Shown one piece after another: positions 1,209 to 57,878 of a stretch of DNA of 64,000 bases. A program made the translations under genes and the position numbers. Every line of letters begins with the position of its first letter. Position 1 is the stretch's first letter. The notes beneath the pieces are model-generated. The model ran no database searches and was not told the DNA's origin. It worked only from the letters and a program-made list of their open reading frames with translations. The DNA is from Alphaproteobacteria bacterium. GTDB lineage: Bacteria > Pseudomonadota > Alphaproteobacteria > Rs-D84. The DNA lies in NCBI GenBank assembly GCA_017618175.1, contig JAFZUT010000018.1:29759-93758 (forward strand), read 5' to 3'.

Positions 1209-2918
1209 ATGTCTTTATCTGTGTTGATATTTTTTTCAATGTTATTTGTGTTGGTGTTTTTGTTGCGCACACTGCGCATTGGCGCAATAGTTGCGTTTTT
1301 AGTGGCGGGTATAATTTCCGGACCGTTTGTTTTGGATTTGTTCCAAGTAAATTCCACATGGACATTTTTGGGTGATTTAGGAATTTTATTCTTGTGGTTT
1401 AACATTGGTTTGGAAATAAATATGAAACGCCTGTGGAAAATGCGGCGAACAATCTTTGGTTTCGGTGCGGCCCAGGTTTTAATGGTCGCGGTAATGTTGT
1501 TTCCAATCTTGGTTGGGATAACAACGTGGTCAATAATGGGCGTGATAACAATTTCATTGTTGTTGGCAATGTCCAGCACATCCGAAGACTTGCAATTATT
1601 GACAGACAGAAATCAATTAAACACGGTTATGGGACATCAAACATTTTCGATATTATTGTTCCAAGATTTGTTATCAATTCCGTTGTTGGCAATGTTACCC
1701 GTGTTCGCGGGGCGTTCATTAAACTTTGGTGCAACAGTCATAGACGTTGTTGTCACTTCTGTTGCGTTGATTTGCGGTGTGGTTGTTGTTGGGCGTTTCG
1801 TGTTGAACCCACTGATGCGGCGCGTATCAAAATTAAAATCACGTGAAGCATTCTTATTGGTGGTAATGTTAAATATCGCGCTGTGGGCGGTGTTTATGGA
1901 TTTGATGGGGTTGCCGGTGGGATTGGGGGCGTTCTTGGCCGGTATGTTAATGTCGGAAACAATATACAATCACCAAGTGCGCGCAGAAATTGGACCGTAT
2001 GCATTATTGTTCTTGTCATTATTCTTTGTGTCATTGGGTATGGGATTAAATTTGGATGTATTGTTGGCAAATTGGTACATCGTTGTTTTGGGTATGGTCG
2101 CGTTGGTCTTAATCAAATTTGCGGCACTGTTTATGGTTGCGCGTGTTCGCAATATTCCATTGCATGATGCGCGCCTTATTGCATTGGTGTTAAGCCAAGG
2201 CGGCGAATTTGCATTGTTGATGTTCCAAACAATGAAGACCAGTGGTATTTCGGCCATCCCCCCCGCACACCAAGAAATTTTAACGGCGATAATAATATTA
2301 TCTATGGTATCAACACCGTTCTTGTTGGCAATTCACGATCGGATTATGCGTTCTACAAAATGGTTCACACGTGCACGCACCCGGCAATTGAACGGTGGTG
2401 GCAACAATGTTCAACCAGAAGTCATAATTTGTGGATTTGGGCGTGTTGGTCAAATTATTGCATACGTGTTGGGAACGCGCAAGATACCATACGTCGCGCT
2501 TGATTTAGATGTAAATGCAATTATGATGGGGCGCGAACACGGGTATAATGTTTTCTATGGCGACAGCACGAATTCCAGTGTTCTGCGTGATTTTGGTTTA
2601 GCATCGCGGCGCGTGCGTGCGGTTGTTGTCGCGTTGGATAATGCAAGCACGGCGCGCAACGCGGTTTTAAGTGTACGCGGTGTCGCCCCGCGCGTAAAAA
2701 TATTTGCACGTGCGCGCAATTTAACCGAAACACGTGAATTATTAAAAGACGGTGTTCAAGAGGCATGGCCCGAAACCATAGAATCTTCGTTGATGTTGGC
2801 GCGTGGCGTTTTGGGTCAATTGGGTATTTCGGATGGTGTTATATCAAGTATGTTGGATGAAATGCGCAGTGAAAATTACGCAGAACTGGATAACGCCATC
2901 ACCGACAGAAATAATTAA
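1209..2918 (+). CDS. CPA2-family monovalent cation:proton antiporter with C-terminal RCK/TrkA-N domain (KefB/KefC-like)
   Basis: 569 aa. A multi-TM N-terminal half is followed by a Rossmann motif ICGFGRVGQ. RBS GGGGAGAGA lies upstream. Confidence 0.8.
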   Translation: MSLSVLIFFSMLFVLVFLLRTLRIGAIVAFLVAGIISGPFVLDLFQVNSTWTFLGDLGILFLWFNIGLEINMKRLWKMRRTIFGFGAAQVLMVAVMLFPILVGITTWSIMGVITISLLLAMSSTSEDLQLLTDRNQLNTVMGHQTFSILLFQDLLSIPLLAMLPVFAGRSLNFGATVIDVVVTSVALICGVVVVGRFVLNPLMRRVSKLKSREAFLLVVMLNIALWAVFMDLMGLPVGLGAFLAGMLMSETIYNHQVRAEIGPYALLFLSLFFVSLGMGLNLDVLLANWYIVVLGMVALVLIKFAALFMVARVRNIPLHDARLIALVLSQGGEFALLMFQTMKTSGISAIPPAHQEILTAIIILSMVSTPFLLAIHDRIMRSTKWFTRARTRQLNGGGNNVQPEVIICGFGRVGQIIAYVLGTRKIPYVALDLDVNAIMMGREHGYNVFYGDSTNSSVLRDFGLASRRVRAVVVALDNASTARNAVLSVRGVAPRVKIFARARNLTETRELLKDGVQEAWPETIESSLMLARGVLGQLGISDGVISSMLDEMRSENYAELDNAITDRNN

Positions 2919-2919
2919 A

Positions 2920-2942
2920 AAATGCCCAATTGGGCATTTTTA
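2920..2942 (+). terminator. Rho-independent terminator
   Basis: Hairpin ATGCCCAATTGGGCAT followed by a T-run, directly after the stop codon. Confidence 0.7.
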
Positions 2943-2999
2943 TGTTTGATTTTGCGCACTTATACTGCTATATTGACCCCATATTAAAAAGGAAATAAA

Positions 3000-3530
3000 A
3001 TGAACAGAAAGTCAAAGATTTTTGCCGGCATTTTTGGTGTGATTTTATTGGACCAAATTGCCAAGGGAATACTTTTGTTTCTAATCACCGGTTCGGCGTT
3101 TGTGTTTGGTCCCGCTTGGTCGGTTGTTCCGGTACCATACTTGATGGCACGCGTAACAAATTTCTTTAATATTGTTTTCACTTGGAATCCGGGAACGGCG
3201 TTTTCAATGTTTCGAAGCCTGGGTGATAATGCGCCGTTGATAATGATTATTGCAACGGGCGTGATAATTGCATTGTTGATTTATTATTTGTTGCGGCGTG
3301 CGCGGGAATATGAGGTTGCACCTTTGGTGTTGATTGTTGGCGGTGCACTGGGTAATTTAATTGATAGAATTCGTTTTGGCGCAGTGATCGATTTCTTGGA
3401 TTTTCATATTGGGGCAATTCATTGGCCGGCGTTTAATGTTGCCGACATGTTTATAACGATTGGTGTGTTGTTTTATATTTTGAATTGGTGGTTGGCGCGC
3501 CGCAAATGTTTGAAAAATGTTAGGGGGTAA
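3000..3530 (+). CDS. lspA: Lipoprotein signal peptidase II
   Basis: 176 aa, 4 TM segments, LspA motifs (FTWNPGTAFS, FNVADMFITIG). Confidence 0.9.
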   Translation: MNRKSKIFAGIFGVILLDQIAKGILLFLITGSAFVFGPAWSVVPVPYLMARVTNFFNIVFTWNPGTAFSMFRSLGDNAPLIMIIATGVIIALLIYYLLRRAREYEVAPLVLIVGGALGNLIDRIRFGAVIDFLDFHIGAIHWPAFNVADMFITIGVLFYILNWWLARRKCLKNVRG

Positions 3531-3534
3531 TTTA

Positions 3535-5124
3535 ATGGTAAAATATTTAGATAATAATTCTGGCTTTAATATGTGGAACGCGAATAAAACCGCATCGTCC
3601 AATGATAAACCGAAATCACGCTTGGGTAATTTTTTATGGTGGGGAATTTTGTTTTTGGGAACTTGGTGGTTGTTCAGTATGTGGAACGCACCGAAAAATG
3701 TTCCCGTACCAACAGATACCGAAAGTGCGATTATTGCGACCGATGTTTCAAATGTACCGGCGCATGAAATATCTGGGAATAAAATTACGGCAAATGCGCA
3801 GGGATTGCGCGTTTCAAATATAGCACTGAATGATTTTGCGGCTTCGGCCAAGGCGGATGATAATGCGTGTGTCACACTTTTGGGTGGTGATGGCGATTTT
3901 ATCGAAGTCGGCCTGAACGCCACCGGCACAACCGCACCCGATGCGAAAACCGTATGGCAAGATACCGGCGATACAATGCGTTGGCGTAACGTGGATGGTG
4001 TTGTATTCACGCGTTCAATCACGGTTGATGGATATTTAATAACGGTGACGGATACGGTTGAAAATAAGACCAAACATGAAATTTCTTTTGCGCCGTATGC
4101 GCGAATCGTGCGTGGTGACAAATCAAATTCTGCGGGTGTTGCAACCGGTGCAATCACGAACAGCAATTCCAAGGTTCACTATGTTGATTGGAATAAAATG
4201 TCTAAAAAGTCATATGCATATTCCACAACAAATGGATTTGTCGGTTTTGCAGACCAATATTGGGAAACAATTGCGGCCGTTCAATCACCTGATCAAACAA
4301 TACGCGCAAAATCCATTGGAAATAAATATATGACGGACGCGTCCGCGGCGGCGATTCGTGTTGCACCAAATGATACCGGTGTGTTCACAACAACAATTTT
4401 TGCCGGTCCGCGTGACCAACGTGTATTGGACGCGGCCGCAACAACAATCGGCGGGCTGGATGAAACCATAGATTATGGTTGGTTTTGGTTCTTGGCACGA
4501 CCAATGTTGTGGGCATTAAATATTTTGAATTCGTTTGTTATGAATTATGGTGTCGCAATAATTTTATTGACGATATTGTTGCGGTTATTGATGTGGCCAT
4601 TGACGCGCAAGTCATACACTTCATCAATTGCGATGCAGAAAATGCAACCAGAATTGCAACGTATCCAAAAACTTTACGCAAATGACAAAGCGCGCCTGCA
4701 ATTGGAAATGATGAATCTGTACAAAACACACAAGACTTCACCAATGTCTGGGTGTTTGCCGATGCTGATTCAAATCCCGATTTTCTTTGCATTGTACAAG
4801 GCGTTATTGGTATCGGTGCAAATGCGAAATGCGCATTTCCTTTGGATAAATGATTTGGCGGCGATGGACCCGTATTTCATATTGCCGATTTTGATGGGCG
4901 CGACAATGTGGTTGCAACAATATATACAATCGGGCCGTATGCGTAAAGATGCACCGAAAAATGATGCGATGGCGGCAACGGCACGTATGATGAAATGGTT
5001 GCCGATAATATTTGCGGTTATGTTTGCGTGGATGCCGGCGGGGTTGGTCCTGTATTGGACGGTTTCAAATATGTTCGGTATATTGCAAACATATATAATA
5101 AAAAAACAGTTAAATAAAAAATAA
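3535..5124 (+). CDS. yidC: Membrane protein insertase YidC
   Basis: The ORF track starts at 3517, but the ATG at 3535 has a GGGGG RBS and avoids overlap with lspA. N-terminal TM, large periplasmic domain, conserved C-terminal insertase core (MQKMQPELQ, PMLIQIPIFFALY). Confidence 0.93.
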   Translation: MVKYLDNNSGFNMWNANKTASSNDKPKSRLGNFLWWGILFLGTWWLFSMWNAPKNVPVPTDTESAIIATDVSNVPAHEISGNKITANAQGLRVSNIALNDFAASAKADDNACVTLLGGDGDFIEVGLNATGTTAPDAKTVWQDTGDTMRWRNVDGVVFTRSITVDGYLITVTDTVENKTKHEISFAPYARIVRGDKSNSAGVATGAITNSNSKVHYVDWNKMSKKSYAYSTTNGFVGFADQYWETIAAVQSPDQTIRAKSIGNKYMTDASAAAIRVAPNDTGVFTTTIFAGPRDQRVLDAAATTIGGLDETIDYGWFWFLARPMLWALNILNSFVMNYGVAIILLTILLRLLMWPLTRKSYTSSIAMQKMQPELQRIQKLYANDKARLQLEMMNLYKTHKTSPMSGCLPMLIQIPIFFALYKALLVSVQMRNAHFLWINDLAAMDPYFILPILMGATMWLQQYIQSGRMRKDAPKNDAMAATARMMKWLPIIFAVMFAWMPAGLVLYWTVSNMFGILQTYIIKKQLNKK

Positions 5125-5128
5125 AAAA

Positions 5129-5153
5129 ATCCCCACGTTTGTGGGGATTTTTT
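5129..5153. terminator. Bidirectional terminator between convergent yidC and the 112-aa ORF
   Basis: Hairpin ATCCCCACGTTTGTGGGGAT flanked by an A-run and a T-run. Confidence 0.7.
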
Positions 5154-5490
5154 AATCGCATAATTTTTTGTACAATGCATCGGGTGTTTGTATAAACGGT
5201 GCGTGCATACCAATTGCGCGCTTTGCCATATCAACGCAAGTCCACGCGTTGCGGGGATTAAAACCCGAATTTATTTCGCACGGCACATAAACAAATCGCC
5301 ACCCATATCGCCCCAGTATTCGTATATCGCGCGTGTGAATAAAAATTTCTGCCACGTTTTTATGTGATGAAAATTGATACATAATAAAACCATTTTTATC
5401 ACGCACCAAAACGGCGCAGTGTTTGAAATGCCTGCAAAATATATTTGGTAAAACTTTACTGGATTTCGGTGCAAACGCAATTATAACCAT
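5152..5490 (-). CDS. Hypothetical protein (112 aa)
   Basis: Lies 11 nt downstream of the preceding minus-strand ORF, so probably the same operon. No family recognised. The His...Cys arrangement (FKHCAVLV ... WTCVDMAKRAIG) only faintly resembles permuted papain-like amidases. Confidence 0.5.
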   Translation of the reverse strand: MVIIAFAPKSSKVLPNIFCRHFKHCAVLVRDKNGFIMYQFSSHKNVAEIFIHTRDIRILGRYGWRFVYVPCEINSGFNPRNAWTCVDMAKRAIGMHAPFIQTPDALYKKLCD

Positions 5491-5501
5491 CTTATTCTCC
5501 T

Positions 5502-5846
5502 TTATTCAATCCAACCTTTTTCGCGGGCGGCCGCATCCAAAGTATTCATCGCCGTATTCCAAATTGCGGCGGCGTGATTTTCCCGCCATATATATTGATG
5601 CGGCGCGCGCCGGCGATCACCAAATTCTTTCATAACGGCCAATTGGGCATCGTTCAGTTTCCCAGATAAATACAGTTTTGTAATCAATGTTTCAACGTCA
5701 ACCAATTCGCACACACGCCGCGTAGATGCCCGTCCATTGTTTTGCCCTATATCATTTCGCACCGATTTAGAATATAAAAACCAGAACCAAATTTGTTCTG
5801 CGTTTTGAAATTTTTCGGGTGTATAATTTGCTTGTATTTCCGTCAT
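5502..5846 (-). CDS. Hypothetical protein (114 aa)
   Basis: ORF with a good RBS (AAGGAG). No family recognised. Confidence 0.5.
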   Translation of the reverse strand: MTEIQANYTPEKFQNAEQIWFWFLYSKSVRNDIGQNNGRASTRRVCELVDVETLITKLYLSGKLNDAQLAVMKEFGDRRRAPHQYIWRENHAAAIWNTAMNTLDAAAREKGWIE

Positions 5847-6008
5847 AATCTTTTCTCCTTGGTTTTTTTGACGTTCTCAATTTTTTATATATTATGTAAT
5901 TGACCAAAATAAACAATTACAACCAACAATTGAATACAAGCCCAGATTTACGATTCGTTTAGGATTTTATTCTTATGTGTTGCGAATCGCATACATCAAT
6001 CGTTTTGT

Positions 6009-6032
6009 AAAAAAAAGGCGCAAAAATGCGCC
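6009..6032 (-). terminator. Second tandem terminator downstream of the virB10-like gene
   Basis: GGCGCA-AAAA-TGCGCC hairpin followed by a T-run on the minus strand. Confidence 0.55.
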
Positions 6033-6093
6033 ACAAATATTTTGGTCGTGAAAAAAACAACGGAATTCTATGTCATATTAAATCCTTTTGGTT

Positions 6094-6118
6094 AAAAAAA
6101 ACCGCCATAAGTGGCGGT
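6094..6118 (-). terminator. Rho-independent terminator ending the virB8-B9-B10-like operon
   Basis: ACCGCCACTTATGGCGGT hairpin followed by T8 on the minus strand, about 20 nt after the stop. Confidence 0.75.
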
Positions 6119-6138
6119 TTATGTTTTCGGTTTTGTCA

Positions 6139-8553
6139 CTATAACTCAATCGGCGGGAAACAATCACCACCCGCATCCGGACAGCAATTGAAACCTTGGT
6201 CACCCATATCGGTGTATGTTTCCCCCGGACAGCATCCATTCGCATCCGGTGCCGCCCCACCATCACACGTCACAACCGAGGTGCTTTGTGTTGTGGTGGA
6301 TGAACCAGACGAAGAAGTTTTCTTGAACGGATTTTGAATTGAACCATCGTCGTTATATTTCAATCCCAAAACCTGTTCATTATATGCCTGGGAACCTTGT
6401 GGGGTTTTGGTTGCCATCTGTTGTTGCTGGTTTTCAAACACCGCCTTTTGTTTTGCATTATTTATCGCATCATATGTCCCCATCGAACGGCAATAGAAAT
6501 CAACAGTATTGAAATTATAACCCCGCCGTTCCATTTCCGTTTTTTCATCGATGTCCGCCATATATGCCCCGGTTTCTTTACCATTAGTATCTTTAACAGG
6601 GGTGCAAAATTCACTTATATTTGCGACCAACATTGAACGAACCTGACCAATCAATTCTTCTGTCTTGGATGGATCTGTTTCCGTAAAGTCATCTTCTTTG
6701 CCATCACGCTTTGGTGAATCCGGATAAGGCAATATTGCGCATCTGCGTGTATCGCCATTGTCTTGACCACAGGTCACAAACAAATCAACAGGTGAAAACA
6801 CCGTGATACGTGTACCGGCGGCGATTGAAAAAGGCGGTGTGGTGTTATCCATTAAATCCACCAATAATTTTGTGGCAACATTGTTCCACGCGGTAATAAT
6901 CTCGTTTTTGGCCAATTCAGATGAACGCACGGTGCCGGTCTGCACAACCGTGTTGTTATCCAAGTCAATTTGATTCACAAATGCATCAGATATAGGTGCA
7001 ATCATATTCACGGCCGCCGGTACAATTGCGGTCAACATCGGCATAACAAATTGTTGCAGATAATCGGTGCTGCCGTGACCGGGAACGCCTTTGCGTCCCT
7101 GGGAATCAGCGGCAAACGGCTGTTTTTTATTATCTGTAAAGTTAAATTCCACACCATCGGGGCGAATAAACTGGTACCATTTTATTTCCATACGACCAAC
7201 CGCCTTGTACGGGCCGGGCAATTCGCCCGTCACATATCCCAACATCAATGTTCCGGTTGGAATAATAACCGTACGACCATTGTCGGAATAAACATTACGG
7301 TCAACCGTTGCGCGTACCGGCAAACCACTTTGCAATAATTTAGAATCTGCCTGAATATCCGATACAATTGTTGCCGGAATCGGTTTATATTGACGCAGAA
7401 CAAAACTGCGGTCATATGGACGTGTTCCAACAACACCTTTATCATTATCGTATCCAGTAAATTCAGTTGTCTTTTTGCGCGGTTTTAACCTAACACCCGG
7501 TTGACGTGCCCCCGGCATAGATGCCAATTGTGAAGCCAACATATCCATATTATCAATTTGTTCCGCACGGGTGACGGTGTGACGCGTTGATGTGCCGCCA
7601 CCAAGCCGGGGCAGGCGGTCCGTCACAACAAAACGTATGTGTTCTGCGTCCGATCCAATTTTGCGTGTTGGATTATTTATGTCCATAATATAACCCGTGT
7701 CTGCATTATACATTCCGGTCGGCGTGTCACAGTTCGTATCAGAAAACGGGTGATAATAATACGCGCCCCCCATTGGTTTTATCCAACCACTTTGAATACC
7801 GGCGGTGTTATATGCCGGAAACGCAAAGTCCGAACAATTATTTTTGAACATATTGCGCGGCACGGCAACCGGTGCATTGTATGTGGGTTCATTAAAACTG
7901 ATTGGTGCCGCAATATTGTTCAGGTCATCTTGAAAATCCGTATCGTAAGCCCAATCATCAATTAAAGGTTCCGGTTCTGGCTCCGGCTCTGGTTCTGGGG
8001 CGGGCGCATCCGTACGTGACATTGGTTTTTCGCGCGCCCCGATAACCAGTGTAATAGCCTTGGGGTTATCAACTTCGGCACCGGTTTCAAACGCACTCCA
8101 CGTAATTGCGACATTTGCGTCAGTGGTGTTAATTGGGTGTTCTGGTTGATATTTAATATTTATGACGCACGGGGCATTTTCTTCGATAATGGTCTGGTCA
8201 TTTTTACATGTTTCGGTTGCAGAAATTCCAACGGCATCATTTGTATCGCCTTCGACCCGCACAACAACATTTGTAATCTGAACGCGCGTATTTGCAGAAA
8301 CAAAAAATTCTGTTTCGCGAACTTCACCCACCACCGTATCAGACCAATCGACCGGCGCATCGGGCGTAATAATCAATTCCGGTGTGGCCGGCAAAGAATT
8401 CGGGTCAATCACAACGCGTTGTGCCTTGCGATTTCCAACCAATATCATCAGTAACACAACCACGATAATAATTGCCGCCGCCAACAATATCCATTGAACA
8501 TATTGTGGCGTAGTTTTGCGAAACTCCGAAAATTGTTCACCGATTTTACTCAT
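6139..8553 (-). CDS. virB10: VirB10/TrbI-like type IV secretion core protein, enlarged (804 aa) with extra N-terminal, proline-rich and Cys-rich C-terminal regions
   Basis: N-terminal TM (WILLAAAIIIVVVLLMILV) and a (PE)n linker (APAPEPEPEPEPEP). VirB10/TrbI-type beta-barrel region at about aa 385-592 (LPVRATVDRNVYSDNGRTVIIPTGTLMLGY...RMEIKWYQFIRPDGVEF...AGTRITVFSPVDL). A further 212 aa follow, ending CDGGAAPDANGCCPGETYTDMGDQGFNCCPDAGGDC. Confidence 0.8.
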   Translation of the reverse strand: MSKIGEQFSEFRKTTPQYVQWILLAAAIIIVVVLLMILVGNRKAQRVVIDPNSLPATPELIITPDAPVDWSDTVVGEVRETEFFVSANTRVQITNVVVRVEGDTNDAVGISATETCKNDQTIIEENAPCVINIKYQPEHPINTTDANVAITWSAFETGAEVDNPKAITLVIGAREKPMSRTDAPAPEPEPEPEPEPLIDDWAYDTDFQDDLNNIAAPISFNEPTYNAPVAVPRNMFKNNCSDFAFPAYNTAGIQSGWIKPMGGAYYYHPFSDTNCDTPTGMYNADTGYIMDINNPTRKIGSDAEHIRFVVTDRLPRLGGGTSTRHTVTRAEQIDNMDMLASQLASMPGARQPGVRLKPRKKTTEFTGYDNDKGVVGTRPYDRSFVLRQYKPIPATIVSDIQADSKLLQSGLPVRATVDRNVYSDNGRTVIIPTGTLMLGYVTGELPGPYKAVGRMEIKWYQFIRPDGVEFNFTDNKKQPFAADSQGRKGVPGHGSTDYLQQFVMPMLTAIVPAAVNMIAPISDAFVNQIDLDNNTVVQTGTVRSSELAKNEIITAWNNVATKLLVDLMDNTTPPFSIAAGTRITVFSPVDLFVTCGQDNGDTRRCAILPYPDSPKRDGKEDDFTETDPSKTEELIGQVRSMLVANISEFCTPVKDTNGKETGAYMADIDEKTEMERRGYNFNTVDFYCRSMGTYDAINNAKQKAVFENQQQQMATKTPQGSQAYNEQVLGLKYNDDGSIQNPFKKTSSSGSSTTTQSTSVVTCDGGAAPDANGCCPGETYTDMGDQGFNCCPDAGGDCFPPIEL

Positions 8554-8577
8554 AATGACCCACCGTATTTTTGCGTA

Positions 8578-10131
8578 CTATTGAATACGAACCACTTGGC
8601 AACTGGCACCACTGAACTTTAACAATTGGTCGCAAAGTTTTTGTGCCGTATCAATATCCGGCATAGGCCCAATGCGCAACCGATACAAACGTGCCGCCGA
8701 AGATGTCGCGCCCAATTCGCCGACACCCTGTTCATCAACCGCATAAAATACGCTGTCTTTATATTTGGTCAGCAATCCTTGACCATCATTGCCACTGAAA
8801 CGCGCCATCAAATCTGCCCAGTAATCGTCCAATGCCTTGACACTGGTGTCTGATTTTAACTCGACCGCAACACCGCCTTGGTTCGTGGTAATAAGCGGAA
8901 TATTAGATTGCGGTAAATATGCCCCCGCCGTATTGCGCACCGTTGGCAACATGGTCATGCCGTTTGATGTTCCGCCGGTCGGCGTTCCATACATATTCAT
9001 CATAATTGCCCCCGATGTTGCCGCCGGCATATTCATTTGCACGCCATTTGTGGCCGGCATAGTGTTGTTTATATATGTTGGTGTCGTTGTGTAATTACCA
9101 TAACCGTTTTGAATTGCAACCTGGTCCGCGGTGTACAGGACGTTGTTCAACGATTGTCCCGACAACATACTTTGCGCAACATTCGCCTCGGCCAAGGCCA
9201 TAACACTTGCGGTGTCGGCAATCAAGAACGGTTTAGAACGTTTTTTGATACAAACAATGCGTTGACCACTGCGCAGAACCATATCGCCAACGGCCTCGAC
9301 AATCAACAACCGTCCGTCTTCGCCATCTGTGCGGAAACCAACCGGCGATTCGCCACCTTCGACCAACAACGATACAACCGGGCGTTGGGTCATAGAAATA
9401 ACTTTGTCGCCGAAATCAATATATGTAAACACCCGGTCGCGCCACACGCGTTCCGGCGCAATCACATAATCATCCGGGTTTGGAACAAATATATCTAAAT
9501 CAAAACGAAATTCGGACGGGTCAATTTTCATTGTTTTAATCCAATCATAATCTTCGCCGTCAACACCAATGGTTCCGCTTTTTGCCGGTGTCTTTTTGAA
9601 TATGGAATTCATGGCCCCACCGGTTTGTGCACCCGCAACGGCCATAGACGCCGGCAACCGTGCGCCACCATCCAATACAACATCAACCTGGGAATATGTG
9701 ATTTCCGATGCGTTTGACGGTTCGCTGCGCAGATAGAAAGTATAAACATTCCCAGATTTCCCCGTCACAATCAGGTTTGTATCGGAACCCATATTATCGG
9801 CCGCGGGCGTAATATACATTGTGCGACCACCCTGGGTTGCGTCAATGGAAAAGAATCCGTCATTGCCGACGATGGCCTCTTCTATTTGTTCGCCAACCGG
9901 TAAATTCACCATGGTCACCATACCATTGCGCAATTTAACCGGTAACACGGTTCCCGCATCCCAAGATAATTGGGCATATCCGGGTTTAATACTGCCCGAT
10001 GCCATATTTGCATTTGGGTTGTCCCATGCACCTTGGACGCCATAGTTCACCGCACGTGCGTCAAACGCAACAAACGCGACAATCGCGCCGATTAAAGATA
10101 TCTTTCCCGCAAATGATTTTAACAGTGTCAT
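8578..10131 (-). CDS. virB9: VirB9/CagX/TrbG-like type IV secretion core protein fused to a C-terminal SPOR-like domain
   Basis: Signal peptide. VirB9 N-domain pattern (VKLRNGMVTMVNLPVGEQIEEAIVGN...TNLIVTGKSGNVYTFYLRS) and C-domain pattern (PERVWRDRVFTYIDFGD...LLIVEAVGDMVLRSGQRIVCIKK). A Met/Asn/Thr/Gly-rich linker leads to the last ~99 aa, which match the SPOR pattern (LYRLRIGPMPDIDTAQKLCDQLLKFSGASCQVVRI). Confidence 0.8.
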   Translation of the reverse strand: MTLLKSFAGKISLIGAIVAFVAFDARAVNYGVQGAWDNPNANMASGSIKPGYAQLSWDAGTVLPVKLRNGMVTMVNLPVGEQIEEAIVGNDGFFSIDATQGGRTMYITPAADNMGSDTNLIVTGKSGNVYTFYLRSEPSNASEITYSQVDVVLDGGARLPASMAVAGAQTGGAMNSIFKKTPAKSGTIGVDGEDYDWIKTMKIDPSEFRFDLDIFVPNPDDYVIAPERVWRDRVFTYIDFGDKVISMTQRPVVSLLVEGGESPVGFRTDGEDGRLLIVEAVGDMVLRSGQRIVCIKKRSKPFLIADTASVMALAEANVAQSMLSGQSLNNVLYTADQVAIQNGYGNYTTTPTYINNTMPATNGVQMNMPAATSGAIMMNMYGTPTGGTSNGMTMLPTVRNTAGAYLPQSNIPLITTNQGGVAVELKSDTSVKALDDYWADLMARFSGNDGQGLLTKYKDSVFYAVDEQGVGELGATSSAARLYRLRIGPMPDIDTAQKLCDQLLKFSGASCQVVRIQ

Positions 10132-10158: not shown

Positions 10159-10818
10159 TTACTGTTTATACACCGTATCCAGTGGATCTCCACCACCTTC
10201 GACCGTATACCGCGAAACTTTGACCCCCAATGGGTTGTTCAAACGTTCCGCCCATTTAATTTGTGCATCATCCGTCATAGTAATTCCAATCAGGATTGTA
10301 TAATCTTTTTTGTCGGTTTGTCCATTATTATCTGAGCAATAATATTCAAATTTTACCGTGTATTGGTTGTCGCGTAATTGCATTGGCCGACCGCGGAAAT
10401 TCACGACACAGTTAAATGCAACATCGGGATAATCACTCATAATCGCCTGGTACAGTCCCGTTTTCTGGAACGCTTTGTATACATCTGGTGTGGACCATGC
10501 GGCAACGACGCCGTTGCTGCTACCCCATTTTTGCCGCATTATCGACATATTTTGTTCAATCTCATTGCGCGCACGCACATATTCCATAACAAATGCCTGG
10601 CGATAAGCCTCAAGATTTTCGTCATTTGGTGGCAATTCAGTAATTTGAATAACCGATGCACCTTCGGGTTTTGACGTTATAAAGAACACTTCCGGCCGGT
10701 TCAGCGGAAACATTTTTTCCAATGTCATAAACATTACAAACAACACAACCACGCACCCGGCGAACACAAAAACAAGCAATCTTGATAATAAAACCGGCGG
10801 TTCTATGCGGTTTTGCAC
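10159..10818 (-). CDS. virB8: VirB8-like type IV secretion inner-membrane protein
   Basis: 219 aa, single N-terminal TM, then a VirB8-type periplasmic domain (AFVMEYVRARNEIE ... NNPLGVKVSRYTVE, compare the canonical NPLGFxVTSYR ending). Confidence 0.75.
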   Translation of the reverse strand: MQNRIEPPVLLSRLLVFVFAGCVVVLFVMFMTLEKMFPLNRPEVFFITSKPEGASVIQITELPPNDENLEAYRQAFVMEYVRARNEIEQNMSIMRQKWGSSNGVVAAWSTPDVYKAFQKTGLYQAIMSDYPDVAFNCVVNFRGRPMQLRDNQYTVKFEYYCSDNNGQTDKKDYTILIGITMTDDAQIKWAERLNNPLGVKVSRYTVEGGGDPLDTVYKQ

Positions 10819-11003: not shown

Positions 11004-11603
11004 TTACGTTAACGGCGTATAGCACTTATTATTGCCGCACGCGCCACTGCAACAAGATTCGTTTTCGCTGCAATATTCGCCATCAACTTTACAATTACTT
11101 GCCTTGCCGCTTGGACGGCTGCTGTCGAATCCATCGGGTCCATAAACGATGCGTCCATGCAAGTTCCACAATAAACAATTACCGGATTCATCCGCGTCAA
11201 AACAATTTGCATAAACGGCGGTTGTTTCCGTCATTTCCGGCAAATTGTCCACCGTACTGGATATTTCATCCATCTCGTTATATAAATCATCCATAGCCGG
11301 AACAATATCACCCGCGGTCACCAGGTCCCCTTCGTGGCCTGAGACAACACCGCCGTTTTCATCGTCATAGCCTGTTTCAAAATCAAAAATCCCACGTTCA
11401 CCGATTACACCGTTACCGGTCGTTGTATATGTGACAACGGTTTCACCGGGGGTTGATGCGTTTGTTCCCGCCGCAGGTATTTTATTTTGTTTCAATGCAT
11501 CTTGGGCATCTACATAATCTTTGGATGTAACCGTGGAACTTGTTGCAAATGCGTTTAATGCTAAAACGGATGCGATTGCACCAATGAATAATGCCTGTCT
11601 CAT
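11004..11603 (-). CDS. Secreted protein (199 aa) with DYVD...KQxKI N-terminal motif, NCLLWNL motif and knottin-pattern Cys tail
   Basis: The ORF track starts at 11768, but the ATG at 11603 has RBS AAAGGGAGG and yields a signal peptide (MRQALFIGAIASVLALNAFA). Paralogous to 25848..26360. C-terminus is CKVDGEYCSENESCCSGACGNNKC. Confidence 0.75.
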   Translation of the reverse strand: MRQALFIGAIASVLALNAFATSSTVTSKDYVDAQDALKQNKIPAAGTNASTPGETVVTYTTTGNGVIGERGIFDFETGYDDENGGVVSGHEGDLVTAGDIVPAMDDLYNEMDEISSTVDNLPEMTETTAVYANCFDADESGNCLLWNLHGRIVYGPDGFDSSRPSGKASNCKVDGEYCSENESCCSGACGNNKCYTPLT

Positions 11604-11757
11604 AATATTCCTCCCTTTTTCCTTGTCGTCATCCCGATATAAATCGGGATCCCTTCTTTTTTCCTGATTTATAGTGTAACAAAAAGGTACCTTTTTTGTG
11701 ACCAGGTACCTTATTTTGTAAGTAATTGATTTTACTGAATCGCATTTTCTAAAAAAA

Positions 11758-11791
11758 GTGATGGACAAAAACGTACGTTTTTGACCATCAC
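11758..11791 (-). terminator. 34-nt near-perfect palindrome followed by T7 on the minus strand (terminator or attenuator in the leader of the 11603 gene)
   Basis: GTGATGGACAAAAACGT/ACGTTTTTGACCATCAC with one mismatch. The T-run follows on the minus strand. Confidence 0.5.
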
Positions 11792-29038: not shown

Positions 29039-32000
29039 ATGAAAAGACTTGCTATATTTATTGGTGGCCTGCTTGTGTTGCCCGCATTTGCTGAGGTTGC
29101 ACCTGTTTTATATGAAGATATTGAATACGCGGATGTTGTGTATGATGAATACGGCAATCCGGTGTATTACACCGATTATACGGACGCGGATTTAACCCCG
29201 GAAATGGACGAAAATGTGACGATGCCTTCTGTTCCTGCGTCACGCAGTGGATCCGCATCGCGTGCAAACACTAACCGCACAACAATCGGTCGAACGGTAC
29301 CCACAACCAATGCGGGTGCGGCCACGGGTCGTGCGTCTGCGGCAAATTCGTCACGTGTGGTGGCGGCGCGTACAACATCGAATTCTTCCCCACGTTCAAA
29401 CACCAATTCGCGCAGTGTTTCATCGCGTACAACATCAACCACGGCAACGCGCACAACAACCGATACAGATGCCACGCGGGCGGCGGCAACCCGTGCAACG
29501 GGCGGGGCGGGGCGTACCGCAACATCAACCCGCACAGGCGCATCCGGTGGTGCGACGGTGGCACGAACAACAACATCGCGTAATGCGACATCATCGCGCA
29601 CGGCAACGACCGGTGCACGTGTAAATCGTGCATCGACCAACGCGGCGGTGGGGGTGACCGGCAATGTTATATCTGCTGCGCCCATCCGGGTAACCACGGC
29701 CAGCGGCACAACAAACGCGGATTACCTTACCGACAGTGGCCAAAGATTATATAACGCAAACGGTGCACGTGTCAGTGTTGCGAACCGTGTTCCAACAATT
29801 CGTATGTCATCGGTCAGTGGCATTTCCACCGATACCACATCGGTCAGTGCGACCACCCCCGCAGAAATGGACGAATTGGCGGAATTAACCGATTATTGCA
29901 AGGCCCAATATGCGGCGTGCATGGATAATTATTGTAACGTCTTGGACGACAACCAAGGCCGTTGCAGTTGCAGTGCCAATATTAAAAATTATGCCAAGGC
30001 CGAGGCCGCATTGAAACAGGCAACCGAAGAATTGCAAGAGGTTGCACAAAAGATTCAATACATTGGTTTGTCCGCGCGCGAGGTTGAAACCCTGTTCACC
30101 CAGACCGAGGCGGAATTGAAAATGCAATCCACCACCGATACCAGTCAGTTAAAGACCAGTCTGGACAAGATAAAAGATATGATTATCGAGGTTCAATCCG
30201 GCAACGCATCATCTTCGAATTCGTCTTTCCTTTCGTTTGATTTATCGGGTCTGTTGGACTTTACTATTGACAGCACCGGTTTTGATTTATCTTCGTTCTT
30301 GGGTGGTTTTGGCACGAATTCAAACGGTATCAATAACCAACGCGGCGAAGAATTGTTCAAAACCGCAACAAATCGTTGCAAGGCGAACGTCTTAAAGGCC
30401 TGCACGGCCCAGGGTGTTGACGGTTCATTGGTTACGAACGCGTATGATTTAGAAATTGACCGCGAATGTATCGCCTATGAACGCAGCCTGAACGATTCCA
30501 ACGACCAAATGGTTGCAACGGTGCGCAACGCCAAAAGCGTTCTGCAAAAGGCGCGCCTGTTGGTGGAACAATCGAAAAACGAATACGATATGCGCGGATG
30601 CATAAACGCACTTGATTCCTGTATGCAGGATGAATACGTTTGCGGCACGGATTATGAAAAGTGCCTTGATCCGTCCGGCCGCTATATCGTGAACGGCGAA
30701 ATAGTTATTGGTACCGACCCGGGTCGCGCGGTGAATGGCATTGGAGACGCCACAAATGCCACGGGTGTGTTGGACGGCGATATATGCAGTATGAATTTGT
30801 ATAACGTTTGGAATTATGGTTCATCCACGGCGGGCCAAACAACGGCCGGTTGCAAAAACGCATGGAACAGTTACAGCCTGAACGGTTCCAACAATGGTAA
30901 TTTGGCGGATTATATAAACACAACCGTGACGGCAACTGCGGCCAAGAACGGCGGTTTGGGTATGTCTGAATTTATCCAAAACAAAATCGGTTATGTTGAT
31001 GGCGACAAAAATTATGGTATGTGCATATCGGTGCTGAATAAATGCCAAGATTACACATACACCGGCAAGGGTTCTTCGCGTAAATATAACCCCGTGAACG
31101 AGGTTGTAAAACAATACTTGGATCGTATGTTGATTCAAATCAAGGCAAAGCAAGACCAAATCTTGGCGGAACACGCGGAAAGTTGTATAACGGACGTGAC
31201 AACATGCCTGTCCCAGAACAATTATCCGTTTGATGAGGCATCAACGAACCAGGTTCAGGCGAATATCGCAATCAACGCGTGCCGTTCAACAATCGTGACA
31301 TGTATGTCGGTGAATGGTTATTCGGTTGAAAACCCGACCCCATCTGATTTATCACGTTGGATTTGTGGTATTACCACCGGCAGTGTCGATTGCATCCCAA
31401 ATTCCGGCGGCGGTTCCGGGGGGGGTGAGACAACAACCTATACAGTTACATACAATTGCAACGGTGGAACTGGGACGGCACCGGCGTCACAAACGGTTCA
31501 ATATAACACTCAATTCATGACACGTGCCAACACATGTACCAAACCGAGTGCAAGTCAAACGTTTGATGGGTGGCTTGTGGGAAGTACGTCATCTGATAGT
31601 GTTGTTTGGCTTGCAAATAGGACATATACATACAATTATCAATCTGATAAAACACTTTATGCGCGTTGGACTACGGTGACGGGTTCTTGCACTCCAACGA
31701 CACTTGGAAATTGTAACGAAACAACGTGCGGAAGTTTGGGGGGAAATTACATATGGTGTACTACCGGGTCTAGCAGACCGTCTTGTAAATTAAGAACAGA
31801 TTGTCCGGCCGCATGCAGCGCGACCAATTTGCCGGCATGCGACAGTGATGAGTGTGGGTTGTACAATGGTAATTGGTGCGCATCGGGAACAACGATTAAC
31901 TTCTCATGCAGTGATACTGCAGGTGCCTGTTGTTTGGGCAATCCAACCGGTTGCACGCGCAATCAGTGTGATGCCCTGAATTATAAATGGTGTGTCCAAA

Positions 32001-32200
32001 GAACTGGCGATACACCCAAGTGTACGAGTCAGTCATATCAAGTGGAATGTTGTGTTGGTTCTGTCGCGGGTTGCGCACGCGAGCCGGATTGTATCGCCGT
32101 TGGTGGAACGTGGAATGGGACCAGTTGCAGTGGCAGTGGAGATGATGGTAGGTACCAATATAATACGATAGAAATTGAAGGTGCGGAAGTAAATCCATAA
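29039..32200 (+). CDS. Large secreted multidomain Cys-rich protein (1053 aa)
   Basis: Signal peptide (LLVLPAFAEV). Arg/Ser/Thr/Ala-rich low-complexity region at about aa 66-215. Long helical region with six C-x6-7-C motifs. One Listeria-Bacteroides (InlB B-repeat) type domain at aa 800-878 (YTVTYNCNGGTG...FDGW...TLYARW). Four tandem 4-Cys modules at aa 884-1030. Confidence 0.8.
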   Translation: MKRLAIFIGGLLVLPAFAEVAPVLYEDIEYADVVYDEYGNPVYYTDYTDADLTPEMDENVTMPSVPASRSGSASRANTNRTTIGRTVPTTNAGAATGRASAANSSRVVAARTTSNSSPRSNTNSRSVSSRTTSTTATRTTTDTDATRAAATRATGGAGRTATSTRTGASGGATVARTTTSRNATSSRTATTGARVNRASTNAAVGVTGNVISAAPIRVTTASGTTNADYLTDSGQRLYNANGARVSVANRVPTIRMSSVSGISTDTTSVSATTPAEMDELAELTDYCKAQYAACMDNYCNVLDDNQGRCSCSANIKNYAKAEAALKQATEELQEVAQKIQYIGLSAREVETLFTQTEAELKMQSTTDTSQLKTSLDKIKDMIIEVQSGNASSSNSSFLSFDLSGLLDFTIDSTGFDLSSFLGGFGTNSNGINNQRGEELFKTATNRCKANVLKACTAQGVDGSLVTNAYDLEIDRECIAYERSLNDSNDQMVATVRNAKSVLQKARLLVEQSKNEYDMRGCINALDSCMQDEYVCGTDYEKCLDPSGRYIVNGEIVIGTDPGRAVNGIGDATNATGVLDGDICSMNLYNVWNYGSSTAGQTTAGCKNAWNSYSLNGSNNGNLADYINTTVTATAAKNGGLGMSEFIQNKIGYVDGDKNYGMCISVLNKCQDYTYTGKGSSRKYNPVNEVVKQYLDRMLIQIKAKQDQILAEHAESCITDVTTCLSQNNYPFDEASTNQVQANIAINACRSTIVTCMSVNGYSVENPTPSDLSRWICGITTGSVDCIPNSGGGSGGGETTTYTVTYNCNGGTGTAPASQTVQYNTQFMTRANTCTKPSASQTFDGWLVGSTSSDSVVWLANRTYTYNYQSDKTLYARWTTVTGSCTPTTLGNCNETTCGSLGGNYIWCTTGSSRPSCKLRTDCPAACSATNLPACDSDECGLYNGNWCASGTTINFSCSDTAGACCLGNPTGCTRNQCDALNYKWCVQRTGDTPKCTSQSYQVECCVGSVAGCAREPDCIAVGGTWNGTSCSGSGDDGRYQYNTIEIEGAEVNP

Positions 32201-47940: not shown

Positions 47941-48531
47941 ATGAAAAAAATATCTATGTTTGGGGCATTGATTGGTGCGTTATTTGGGGTGACCGCATAC
48001 GCGGCGGATATCACCGTTTATTATTCGCCAACATGTCCGCATTGTCATCATGCACGCGATTTTATTTCTAATAATTTAATTTATGAATATCCGGAATTGA
48101 ATGTGACCATGGTCAATGTTATGGAATCTGCAAATCGTCCGGAATTTATGGACACATTGAAGAAATGCGAATACGAATCGGGCGGCGTTCCGGTTTTGGT
48201 TATCGGTGAAAAATGTTTCCAAGGTTACGCGGATTCTATGGCGGATGATTTGCGTGCCGCGGTCGAGGCCGATATGACGGACGCGGCCAAATCCATCGCG
48301 GCGGAAAATAAAAAGGCGATTGAGGCGGATGCAGACGCGTTCAAGCGGGTGCACGAAGACAGGCTAAATGCAATTGTCGAACGCGAAATCAAAAGCGCCG
48401 ATGATGACGCGCAAAAAAAAAATAGAACGGTAAATAAAAAATCGAACGATAGTTGGGTTTTCTATGTAATCTTGGTCGTGTTGGTTTTGGGATTGGGATT
48501 CGTGTTAACGCGTAAAGGCAACAAAAAATAA
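47941..48531 (+). CDS. Exported thioredoxin-fold protein (CPHC) with C-terminal membrane anchor
   Basis: Signal peptide, YYSPTCPHCHHARDF redox motif, charged linker, terminal TM (WVFYVILVVLVLGLGFVL). Confidence 0.6.
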   Translation: MKKISMFGALIGALFGVTAYAADITVYYSPTCPHCHHARDFISNNLIYEYPELNVTMVNVMESANRPEFMDTLKKCEYESGGVPVLVIGEKCFQGYADSMADDLRAAVEADMTDAAKSIAAENKKAIEADADAFKRVHEDRLNAIVEREIKSADDDAQKKNRTVNKKSNDSWVFYVILVVLVLGLGFVLTRKGNKK

Positions 48532-57720: not shown

Positions 57721-57878
57721 TAAAACAACCACCATTTGGTGGTCGTTTTATTTAACCGATTCACACGCCAACGGGACACTCGATTTGTGGTGGTCTGGGA
57801 AAAAAATATTAAGTTTTTTTAAGACATGTTTTGCAATTTATTATAAATTATGTCATACTTTCCCCAAGAGGGAACGAC

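What the first reader, a model, noticed from the sequence alone, without database searches (positions are those of the whole stretch)
6142..6777. VirB10 homologue carries a 212-aa C-terminal extension ending in a double-CC cysteine tail
Canonical VirB10 ends shortly after the beta-barrel (here ...AGTRITVFSPVDL, about aa 592). This protein continues for 212 residues with scattered Cys, a Ser/Thr-rich linker (SSSGSSTTTQSTS) and a terminal CDGGAAPDANGCCPGETYTDMGDQGFNCCPDAGGDC. That tail contains two CCP doublets and is loosely granulin-like. The N-terminal half also has ~340 extra residues, including a beta-rich segment (aa 45-175) before the PEPEPEP linker. Because the VirB10 C-terminal domain forms the outer-membrane cap, the extension may be surface-exposed. 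It shares Cys-rich chemistry with the other secreted proteins in this window.
Basis: partly seen in the sequence, partly recalled or inferred. Interest (0 to 1): 0.65.

Follow-up and report, generated by a model that had tools for sequence, protein, structure and literature searches.

The report
VirB10 with conserved cysteine-rich C-terminal tail
A secretion-machine protein (VirB10) of an uncultured, small-genome gut bacterium carries a real, strongly conserved 212-residue cysteine-rich tail that is standard in its whole lineage, most likely sits in the periplasm rather than on the cell surface, and ends in a previously undescribed 45-residue six-cysteine module that the same bacteria attach to several other envelope proteins.

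Summary
ORF 6139-8553 (-) encodes an 804-aa VirB10/TrbI homologue whose family domain ends near aa 592. A further 212 aa follow (nt 6142-6777).

The tail is not an artefact:
- Four independent metagenome assemblies show no indel in the ORF.
- All 80 related loci fetched keep one uninterrupted ORF.
- dN/dS of the tail is 0.04-0.14.
- Ten cysteines are conserved (nine invariant, C650 near-invariant), and total Cys per protein is always even (14, 16 or 18) in 96 homologues.

The extension is therefore standard in the lineage (Ca. Enterousia / order Rs-D84, gut and rumen MAGs with genomes under about 1 Mb). It has no Pfam, NCBIfam or PDB relative. The granulin resemblance is not significant.

New here: the last 45 aa (C-x10-CC-x14-CC-x6-C ... 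CFPPI) are a promiscuous lineage-specific module. It also ends a ~700-aa bitopic coiled-coil protein, secreted proteins with 1-3 copies, and ~80-aa membrane-anchored miniproteins.

VirB10 topology, strong purifying selection and an exported CPHC (DsbA-type) oxidoreductase in the same window point to a disulfide-bonded periplasmic appendage of the outer-membrane core complex. Surface exposure is unsupported, and the function is inferred, not shown.

Verdict: new variant of a known kind, of moderate interest.

The parts
6139..8553 (-). Whole virB10 homologue, 804 aa plus stop (stop codon at 6139-6141)
   Evidence: ORF list. Pfam TrbI and NCBIfam VirB10 hits. Foldseek matches to the VirB10 C-terminal domains of CagY, X. 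citri VirB10, TrwE, TraF and ComB10, E 2e-9 to 3e-6.
8437..8505 (-). N-terminal transmembrane helix (aa 17-39), the inner-membrane anchor
   Evidence: Hydrophobic stretch WILLAAAIIIVVVLLMILVG. Predicted helix 17-39.
8029..8391 (-). N1: lineage-specific beta-sandwich domain (aa 55-175) with conserved C116 and C129
   Evidence: AF2 pLDDT around 85-90, all-beta. Foldseek hits to Ig-like/PapD-like domains at E about 1e-4. Cysteines invariant in the 96-sequence alignment A2; C116 near-invariant in the 20-sequence alignment A1.
7594..7848 (-). N2: second conserved beta-rich periplasmic domain (aa 236-320) with conserved C240 and C275. It follows the PEPEPEPEP linker (aa 176-235, nt 7849-8028).
   Evidence: Alignment conservation 0.74, 18 invariant columns. 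Strands predicted.
6778..7419 (-). Canonical TrbI/VirB10 beta-barrel domain (aa 379-592), including the two long antenna helices (aa 497-523 and 545-569, nt 6847-7065)
   Evidence: Pfam and NCBIfam. Foldseek. Most conserved region: 0.90, 110 of 214 columns invariant.
6724..6777 (-). Start of the extension: short hairpin TCGQDNGDTRRCA with invariant C595 and C605 (aa 593-610)
   Evidence: Invariant Cys pair. Two short strands predicted.
6319..6723 (-). Extension body (aa 611-745). It comprises a variable acidic segment (611-630), an alpha/beta subdomain with GQVRS, C650, C688 and FYCRS..Y.AINNAKQ, and the conserved YNEQVLGLKYN.DG.IQNPF motif.
   Evidence: AF2 C-terminal-only model, pLDDT 88-93 for aa about 648-687. 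C688 invariant; C650 invariant in A1 but not in the 96-sequence A2. Found only in ~800-aa VirB10s or their fragments among 1.8 billion representatives. No PDB fold match.
6277..6318 (-). Ser/Thr-rich low-complexity linker (aa 746-759)
   Evidence: Least conserved part: 0.30, dN/dS 0.17-0.53, pLDDT below 50.
6142..6276 (-). Terminal six-Cys module (aa 760-804): C763-x10-C774C775-x14-C790C791-x6-C798-FPPIEL
   Evidence: Conservation 0.85, 16 of 45 columns invariant. dN/dS 0.04-0.08. The same module is found at the C-terminus of three other protein architectures. Spacing is exactly 10/14/6 in 93 of 141 modules.
8578..10131 (-). virB9 homologue (CagX domain) with a C-terminal SPOR domain, directly upstream. 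This is context, the partner of VirB10 in the core complex.
   Evidence: Pfam CagX 2e-20 and SPOR 8e-5. Synteny present in 79 of 80 loci.
10159..10818 (-). virB8 homologue (context)
   Evidence: Pfam VirB8 2.7e-15. Present in 76 of 80 loci.
47941..48531 (+). Exported thioredoxin-fold protein with a CPHC active-site motif and a C-terminal membrane anchor. It is a candidate periplasmic disulfide oxidase and supports disulfide formation in the tail.
   Evidence: Pfam Glutaredoxin 4.7e-6. The translation shows signal peptide MKKISMFGALIGALFGVTAYA followed by YYSPTCPHCHH.

Best explanation
The 212 residues are a genuine, translated, lineage-wide C-terminal appendage of VirB10 in Ca. Enterousia / order Rs-D84.

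It has three parts:
- a disulfide-clamped hairpin plus an alpha/beta subdomain (aa 593-745, four conserved Cys);
- a flexible Ser/Thr linker;
- a 45-residue six-Cys module.

The chain leaves the VirB10 beta-barrel on the periplasmic side of the outer membrane. I therefore infer that the appendage stays in the periplasm and is oxidised to five disulfides. With 14 copies expected per machine, it would decorate or brace the outer-membrane core complex.

The terminal module is a portable envelope domain. The same bacteria place it at the C-terminal end of other inner-membrane-anchored or secreted proteins. The most likely job is a protein-protein or protein-envelope contact to a partner common to all these proteins, possibly filling a stabilising role like that of VirB7-type accessory subunits elsewhere.

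Shown: existence, conservation, selection, domain limits, module promiscuity, and absence of known homologues.
Inferred: periplasmic location, disulfide bonding, and a docking or bracing function.
For: Real and conserved:
- 120 listed full-length homologues of about 780-855 aa.
- 80 of 80 loci keep an uninterrupted ORF including the module.
- There is no indel in four independent assemblies.
- dN/dS is 0.04-0.14 for the tail and 0.04-0.08 for the module.

Disulfides:
- Ten conserved Cys in the tail: nine invariant, C650 invariant in A1 only.
- Cys per protein is 14, 16 or 18, never odd, in 96 homologues.
- Mature module-bearing proteins of the other families also have even counts.
- An exported CPHC thioredoxin-fold protein is encoded in the same window.

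Periplasmic location:
- The VirB10 fold with two antenna helices is confirmed.
- In solved complexes only the inter-helix loop is extracellular (PMC6536674).
- The module also occurs right after the membrane anchor of ~80-aa proteins, and after a TM plus Pro-rich spacer in ~700-aa bitopic proteins.

Portable module:
- 191 representative hits.
- Four architectures.
- Stereotyped spacing.
- VirB10 and the miniprotein occur in the same MAG (L051 and L084).
Against: - No experimental or structural datum places the tail.
- AF2 confidence for the whole chain is low (pTM 0.34), and no inter-domain packing could be read.
- No coordinates were available to derive a disulfide map.
- The organisms are strict gut anaerobes reported to lack respiratory chains (PMC12306168). 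It is therefore unclear how a DsbA-like protein would be re-oxidised.
- No partner for the module was identified.
- The other module-bearing genes are not linked to T4SS genes. They lie next to gcrA or in a MacB/FtsX-ABC operon, so the module's role may have nothing specific to do with secretion.
- Whether the lineage has VirB4, VirB11 and VirD4 at all was not determined.
Confidence: 0.5

Rival explanations
1. Surface-exposed tip. The tail passes through or around the VirB10 outer-membrane pore and displays the Cys-rich module outside the cell as an adhesin or contact sensor.
For: The VirB10 domain forms the outer-membrane cap (Foldseek hits to outer-membrane core complex structures). A long flexible Ser/Thr linker precedes the module. 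These reduced-genome bacteria probably depend on partners (PMC12306168). Disulfide-rich minidomains are typical of extracellular proteins.
Against: The chain after the second antenna helix returns to the periplasm in all solved VirB10 structures. Fourteen 212-aa tails would have to cross a 35-45 A pore. The module is among the most conserved parts (0.85; dN/dS 0.04-0.08), with no sign of the diversification usual for exposed gut-bacterial surface parts. The identical module sits about 10-15 residues from an inner-membrane anchor in ~80-aa proteins.
Confidence: 0.12
2. The cysteines bind metal (a Zn or Fe-S type knuckle) rather than forming disulfides. The tail would then be a metal-stabilised or redox-sensing domain.
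For: One source labels a module-only fragment 'uncharacterized Zn-finger protein' (P0136). The habitat is highly reducing, and the lineage is reported to lack respiratory chains that normally recycle DsbB.
Against: All module contexts are extracytoplasmic: after signal peptides or TM anchors. Adjacent CC doublets are poor metal-chelating geometry but typical of laddered disulfides (own knowledge). Cys counts are strictly even and gained in pairs. An exported CPHC oxidoreductase is present. No His or Asp ligand pattern is conserved beyond the Cys.
Confidence: 0.12
3. The terminal module is a sorting, export or processing tag, so the tail (or just the module) is cleaved off or handed to another machine. 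One candidate is the MacB/FtsX-type ABC system encoded next to the module-only proteins.
For: The module ends within 0-5 residues of the C-terminus in nearly all of about 150 proteins, with an invariant CFPP[ILM] end. Families C and D are encoded in an operon with a MacB_PCD/FtsX permease and an ABC ATPase. A low-complexity linker precedes the module.
Against: Internal tandem copies exist (P0129, P0139). There is no hydrophobic helix plus basic tail as in known C-terminal sorting signals. The ABC operon looks like housekeeping Lol-type genes and may be linked only by chance. No protease or sortase-like gene is seen beside virB10.
Confidence: 0.1
4. Artefact: a frameshift or mis-assembly fused virB10 to a downstream gene.
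For: None found.
Against: 80 of 80 related loci have one continuous ORF. Four independent assemblies agree, with no indel in 6139-8553. Purifying selection runs across the junction. No stand-alone homologue of aa 593-745 exists outside VirB10 or obvious fragments.
Confidence: 0.01

Closest known systems
Canonical VirB10/TrbI (A. tumefaciens VirB10, pKM101 TraF, R388 TrwE, X. citri VirB10)
   Same: It has an N-terminal TM anchor, a Pro-rich spacer, a C-terminal beta-barrel with a two-helix antenna, and virB8-virB9-virB10 gene order.
   Different: Those proteins end within about 10 residues of the barrel. This one adds 212 conserved residues after it and two extra folded domains (N1, N2) before it. 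Sequence similarity to solved members is weak (best PDB E 5e-7, to CagY).
CagY (H. pylori) and DotG (Legionella): VirB10 homologues with large lineage-specific additions
   Same: They show that the VirB10 scaffold tolerates big lineage-specific domains that remodel the core complex. CagY is the best PDB sequence and fold match.
   Different: Their additions are N-terminal or middle repeat regions, and the VirB10 domain is at the extreme C-terminus (own knowledge). Here the addition follows the barrel and is disulfide-rich.
C-terminal extensions of X. citri X-T4SS VirB7 (N0 domain) and VirB8 (AQGP-rich)
   Same: They are lineage-specific C-terminal add-ons to core T4SS subunits that sit in the periplasm, and their roles are partly unknown (PMC6536674).
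   Different: They occur on different subunits, have no sequence relation to this tail, and are not cysteine-rich.
Granulin/epithelin module
   Same: It is a small Cys-rich unit with adjacent CC doublets and a predicted beta-hairpin. Granulin peptides appear among the weak Foldseek hits (1g26, 2jyu).
TonB/TolA-type architecture
   Same: The layout is a TM anchor, a Pro/Glu-rich periplasm-spanning spacer and a small C-terminal contact domain. This holds for VirB10 itself and for the ~700-aa module-bearing family B.
   Different: There is no sequence or profile similarity to TonB or TolA C-terminal domains. The analogy is architectural only and rests on own knowledge.

Membership tests
VirB10/TrbI (PF03743; NF038091) | TrbI domain scoring above the curated threshold | tested here: met
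   Pfam 59.2 bits against a gathering score of 35, aa 387-586. The NCBIfam VirB10 equivalog_domain scores only 63.8 against 220, so the protein is a divergent member.
VirB10/TrbI (PF03743; NF038091) | Beta-barrel fold with a two-helix antenna projection | tested here: met
   AF2 helices 497-523 and 545-569 lie inside the barrel region. Foldseek probability is 1.00 to 6x6k_AY, 6gyb_C, 7o3j_A, 3jqo and 2bhv.
VirB10/TrbI (PF03743; NF038091) | Bitopic topology: short cytoplasmic N-terminus, one TM helix, Pro-rich periplasmic spacer | tested here: met
   Hydrophobic aa 17-39 and PAPEPEPEPEPEP at about aa 183-196.
VirB10/TrbI (PF03743; NF038091) | Encoded with virB8 and virB9 | tested here: met
   virB8 at 10159-10818 and virB9 at 8578-10131 lie directly upstream. 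Conserved in 76-79 of 80 loci.
VirB10/TrbI (PF03743; NF038091) | Part of a complete T4SS with VirB4, VirB11 and VirD4 ATPases, forming a 14-mer core complex | not tested
   No ATPase genes appear among the window ORFs scanned.
Granulin (PF00396) | 12-Cys motif with four CC doublets, matching the family profile | tested here: not met
   The module has 6 Cys and two doublets with spacing 10/14/6. There is no Pfam hit at E<=0.1.
Granulin (PF00396) | Stacked beta-hairpin fold | tested here: inconclusive
Known C-terminal sorting signals (PEP-CTERM, GlyGly-CTERM, LPXTG, T9SS CTD) | Signature motif followed by a hydrophobic helix and basic residues, or an ~80-aa beta-sandwich CTD, with a cognate sorting enzyme | tested here: not met
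   The tail ends ...GGDCFPPIEL with no hydrophobic stretch. There are no Pfam or NCBIfam hits. No sortase-like neighbour was found.
Disulfide-rich periplasmic minidomain (a generic class, not a curated family) | Extracytoplasmic location, an even number of conserved Cys, and an oxidising system present | tested here: met
   Every context is after a signal peptide or TM anchor. Cys counts are 14, 16 or 18 only. An exported CPHC protein is encoded in the window. Actual disulfides are not testable with these tools.

The most novel reading that the evidence does not exclude
The 45-residue C-x10-CC-x14-CC-x6-C ... CFPP[ILM] unit is a new envelope 'docking' domain family specific to reduced-genome gut Alphaproteobacteria (Rs-D84). 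Through it, several otherwise unrelated inner-membrane-anchored machines are tethered to one common outer-envelope receptor or to each other. These machines are the T4SS core via VirB10, a ~700-aa coiled-coil bitopic protein, and miniproteins and multi-module secreted proteins of a MacB/FtsX-ABC operon. On this reading VirB10's tail is the T4SS's connector into a lineage-specific envelope-organising network that replaces missing accessory subunits such as VirB7.
Probability: 0.2. Interest if true: 0.7.

Novelty: new variant of a known kind. Interest (0 to 1): 0.45.

Why it matters
VirB10 is the subunit that spans both membranes and gates type IV secretion. Characterised versions vary at the N-terminus but end with the barrel. 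This finding is a conserved, folded, disulfide-rich domain appended after the barrel in a whole order of uncultured gut and rumen bacteria with genomes under about 1 Mb. It points to a differently built outer-membrane core complex in organisms that probably live off partners.

The terminal six-Cys module is an unannotated domain family with no Pfam or NCBIfam model. It is reused on at least four protein architectures. Defining it would improve annotation of hundreds of 'hypothetical' envelope proteins in these MAGs and give a handle for finding its binding partner. The finding does not by itself open a long-standing question.

Tried and rejected
- Pfam and NCBIfam scans of the 212-aa tail and of module-bearing proteins gave no family.
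- A PDB profile search with the 96-sequence alignment matched only the VirB10 region (CagY, ComB10).
- A regex and HMM search for the module in other ORFs of the window and in 80 related loci found it only in VirB10.
- The 254-aa ORF upstream of virB8 is not a VirB8 paralogue (BLASTP E=0.49). It is present in only 5 of 80 loci, so it is not a conserved VirB7 substitute.
- The gene context of module families B, C and D showed no T4SS linkage.
- No RNA-seq runs could be listed for the gene.
- Literature searches for T4SS in Rs-D84/RF32 and for VirB10 C-terminal extensions found nothing relevant.
- The first dN/dS script timed out in MAFFT and was rerun on 9 sequences.
- The position of msfGFP in the X. 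citri VirB10-msfGFP chimera could not be established from the papers read. It is therefore not used as evidence.
Full report
**1. What is there**

ORF 6139..8553 on the minus strand encodes 804 aa. Three profile matches define the VirB10 domain:
- Pfam TrbI (PF03743) matches aa 387-586 at 59.2 bits, against a gathering score of 35, reaching profile position 181 of 188.
- NCBIfam VirB10 matches aa 381-591.
- NCBIfam ComB10 matches aa 387-599.

Nucleotides 6142-6777 are exactly the remaining 212 codons. All quoted sequence strings are present.

The genes directly upstream on the same strand are a VirB9/CagX homologue with a C-terminal SPOR domain (8578-10131) and a VirB8 homologue (10159-10818). 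The cluster sits between nusG/rplA/rpoBC on one side and yidC/lspA on the other. No ATPase gene (virB4, virB11, virD4) was found among the window ORFs I scanned.

**2. Is it real?**

A search of 5.8 billion proteins returned 897 hits. The 120 best are almost all 775-855 aa long and cover 95-100% of the query at 46-84% identity.

A scan of species-representative genomes found 247 relatives. The best 80 (45-96% identity) match residues 1 to about 802 in nearly every case. They come from 'Candidatus Enterousia' and unnamed Alphaproteobacteria MAGs from goat, cattle, yak, deer, sheep, chicken and human gut. The nearest is a goat-reticulum MAG at 96%.

In every one of the 80 loci the terminal module lies in one uninterrupted ORF. 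79 of these are longer than 700 aa, and one is cut by a contig end. Contigs from four independent gut-metagenome runs in two studies cover 6000-8700 with no insertion or deletion inside the ORF. The only indel is at 6050, beyond the stop codon.

Pairwise Nei-Gojobori dN/dS between the window and loci L001, L002, L003, L005 and L008 gave:

| Region | dN/dS |
|---|---|
| Whole extension | 0.04-0.14 |
| Last 45 residues | 0.04-0.08 |
| TrbI domain | about 0.02 |
| Ser/Thr linker | 0.17-0.53 |

A frameshift or fusion artefact is excluded.

**3. Anatomy of the tail**

From a 96-sequence alignment the tail has five segments:
- **aa 593-610:** a hairpin with invariant C595 and C605.
- **aa 611-630:** a variable acidic stretch.
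- **aa 631-745:** a conserved alpha/beta body with GQVRS, C650, C688, FYCRS..Y.AINNAKQ, and then YNEQVLGLKYN.DG.IQNPF.
- **aa 746-759:** a poorly conserved Ser/Thr linker.
- **aa 760-804:** C763-x10-C774C775-x14-C790C791-x6-C798-FPPIEL. Its mean majority-residue frequency is 0.85, second only to the TrbI domain at 0.90.

Total cysteines per protein are 14 (52 sequences), 16 (22 sequences) or 18 (22 sequences), never an odd number. The extra cysteines in some sublineages are gained in pairs inside the tail.

AlphaFold2 on the full alignment gave a mean pLDDT of 63 and pTM of 0.34. The individual domains are better defined:
- an N-terminal beta-sandwich (aa 60-174, pLDDT 85-90);
- the barrel with two long antenna helices (497-523 and 545-569);
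- an alpha/beta unit in the tail;
- a beta-hairpin in the terminal module (778-782 and 788-792; pLDDT 70-83).

A tail-only model gave pLDDT 88-93 for aa about 648-687.

**4. Comparison with known structures and families**

The full model matches VirB10 C-terminal domains in solved core complexes: CagY 6x6k, X. citri 6gyb_C, TrwE 7o3j, TraF 3jqo, ComB10 2bhv and F TraB 7spc. E-values run from 2e-9 to 2e-5. The N1 domain matches Ig-like/PapD-like sandwiches at about 1e-4.

**5. The unexpected part: the last 45 residues are a portable module**

I ran phmmer with the 212-aa tail against 1.84 billion cluster representatives. It gave 191 hits. The body of the tail (aa 593-745) is found only in ~800-aa VirB10 proteins or their fragments. 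The last ~45 residues also hit the extreme C-terminus of many other proteins.

HMM-based sorting gives four architectures:

| Family | Architecture |
|---|---|
| A | VirB10 |
| B | ~680-850-aa proteins: conserved cytoplasmic N-domain, coiled coil, one TM helix, ~200-aa Pro/Glu/Val-rich spacer, then the module |
| C | 170-280-aa proteins: signal peptide, conserved Cys-containing N-domain, and 1-3 modules |
| D | ~70-130-aa proteins: an N-terminal membrane anchor and one module |

- In almost all cases the module ends 0-5 residues from the C-terminus.
- The spacing is exactly 10/14/6 in 93 of 141 modules.
- A profile search of the 5.8-billion set found 221 further members. All lack Pfam domains, and those that carry a name are nearly all labelled Alphaproteobacteria MAGs.
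- Family B is encoded next to gcrA.
- Families C and D are adjacent genes in a conserved operon with a lipoprotein, a MacB_PCD/FtsX permease, an ABC ATPase and two TM-anchored Cys proteins.
- One such operon (L084) is from the same MAG as VirB10 locus L051.

The module is thus a general envelope domain of this lineage, not a T4SS-specific one. Within the window it occurs only in VirB10. The other Cys-rich secreted proteins of the window are unrelated to it.

**6. Where is the tail, and what does it do?**

In solved VirB10 complexes the two antenna helices cross the outer membrane, and only the loop between them is extracellular (PMC6536674). The chain that follows the second helix completes the barrel below the membrane, so the extension begins in the periplasm. 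This is an inference from established structures.

Supporting points:
- Every other carrier of the module presents it on the periplasmic side of an inner-membrane anchor or after a signal peptide.
- In family D only about 10-15 residues separate the anchor from the module, so it cannot reach the surface there.
- The module is under strong purifying selection rather than diversifying.
- Cysteine counts are strictly even.
- The window itself encodes an exported thioredoxin-fold protein with the DsbA-type CPHC motif and a C-terminal anchor (47941-48531).

I therefore favour a disulfide-bonded (five bonds) periplasmic appendage. It would be present in as many copies as VirB10 has in the core complex. 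It would brace or decorate the O-layer, and its terminal module would contact a partner shared with the other module-bearing envelope proteins.

The VirB9 partner has also acquired an extra envelope-binding domain (SPOR). This fits a lineage-specific remodelling of how the core complex is fixed in the cell wall. No conserved VirB7-like gene is seen at the locus. The ORF upstream of virB8 is present in only 5 of 80 loci.

Confidence in the individual steps:
- Real conserved domain: about 0.97.
- Periplasmic and disulfide-bonded: about 0.7.
- Docking or bracing function: about 0.4.

**7. Caveats**

- No coordinates were available, so no disulfide map or domain packing could be read.
- The organisms are anaerobes with reduced genomes that reportedly lack respiratory chains (PMC12306168). 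How the CPHC protein would be re-oxidised is therefore open, and a metal-binding alternative cannot be excluded.
- Completeness of the T4SS in this lineage is unknown.
- No transcript data could be found.
- No paper in the searchable library describes a T4SS in Rs-D84/RF32 or a C-terminal VirB10 extension.

**8. Verdict**

The extension is the norm in its lineage. This is a new variant of a known kind, VirB10 with a novel C-terminal domain pair. The added finding is an undescribed, promiscuous six-Cys envelope module. Interest is moderate (0.45).

Noticed in passing
window 8578-10131 (-): The VirB9/CagX homologue carries a C-terminal SPOR (peptidoglycan-binding) domain (aa 475-515, E 8e-5) after a long Gly/Thr/Asn/Met-rich spacer. 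This is unusual for VirB9 and is conserved with the locus in 79 of 80 relatives.
   Followed up: partly
window 11004-11603 (-) (ORF listed as 11004-11768): This is a secreted ~199-aa protein (signal peptide MRQALFIGAIASVLALNAFA) directly upstream of virB8. It ends in CKVDGEYCSENESCCSGACGNNKCYTPLT, a C-C-CC-C-C inhibitor-cystine-knot-like spacing. It has only a weak sub-threshold Pfam UPF0506 hit (E 0.004) and is present in only 5 of 80 related loci.
   Followed up: partly
window 47941-48531 (+): This is an exported thioredoxin/glutaredoxin-fold protein with a signal peptide, the DsbA-type CPHC motif and a C-terminal TM anchor. It is a candidate periplasmic disulfide oxidase in an anaerobe said to lack respiratory chains.
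   Followed up: partly
window 29039-32200 (+) and 32222-33658 (+): Two adjacent signal-peptide proteins are very rich in cysteine: 1053 aa with 46 Cys, and 478 aa with 24 Cys. The first has only a weak Listeria-Bacteroides repeat (Flg_new) hit. Neither contains the VirB10 tail module.
   Followed up: partly
window 5502-5846 (-) and 5152-5490 (-): Two small ORFs (114 and 112 aa, no Pfam hit) lie immediately downstream of virB10 on the same strand. They are conserved in 77 and 75 of 80 related loci, so they may belong to the same operon in place of the virB11/virD4 genes that follow virB10 in Rickettsiales-type clusters.
   Followed up: partly
L083-L086 (about 2900-9100), L087, L088: A conserved operon runs: lipoprotein (446 aa), MacB_PCD/FtsX permease, ABC ATPase, 234-247-aa TM-anchored Cys protein, secreted protein with 1-3 six-Cys modules, ~80-aa TM-plus-module miniprotein, then a 278-aa paralogue. 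Two different carriers of the VirB10 tail module sit side by side in it.
   Followed up: partly
L081 8001-10220, L082: This ~740-aa module-bearing 'family B' protein has a conserved cytoplasmic N-domain, a coiled coil, a TM helix and a Pro/Glu/Val-rich spacer. It is encoded next to the cell-cycle regulator gcrA, has no Pfam hit, and shows a TonB/TolA-like layout.
   Followed up: no
window 6922-6984 (-) (aa 524-544): The loop between the two antenna helices (…FVNQIDLDNNTVVQ…) would be the only extracellular part of VirB10. It is invariant across 96 homologues, whereas this loop is described as variable in other T4SSs (PMC6536674).
   Followed up: no
window 56744-57247 (-), 57831-58427 (+), 40015-41568 (+): These ORFs are a phage-type lysozyme, a MafB19-like/cytidine deaminase-fold protein, and a homologue of the Protochlamydia outer-membrane protein (Pom). 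They lie in the lower-GC part of the window (about 0.39-0.40 after 56 kb).
   Followed up: no
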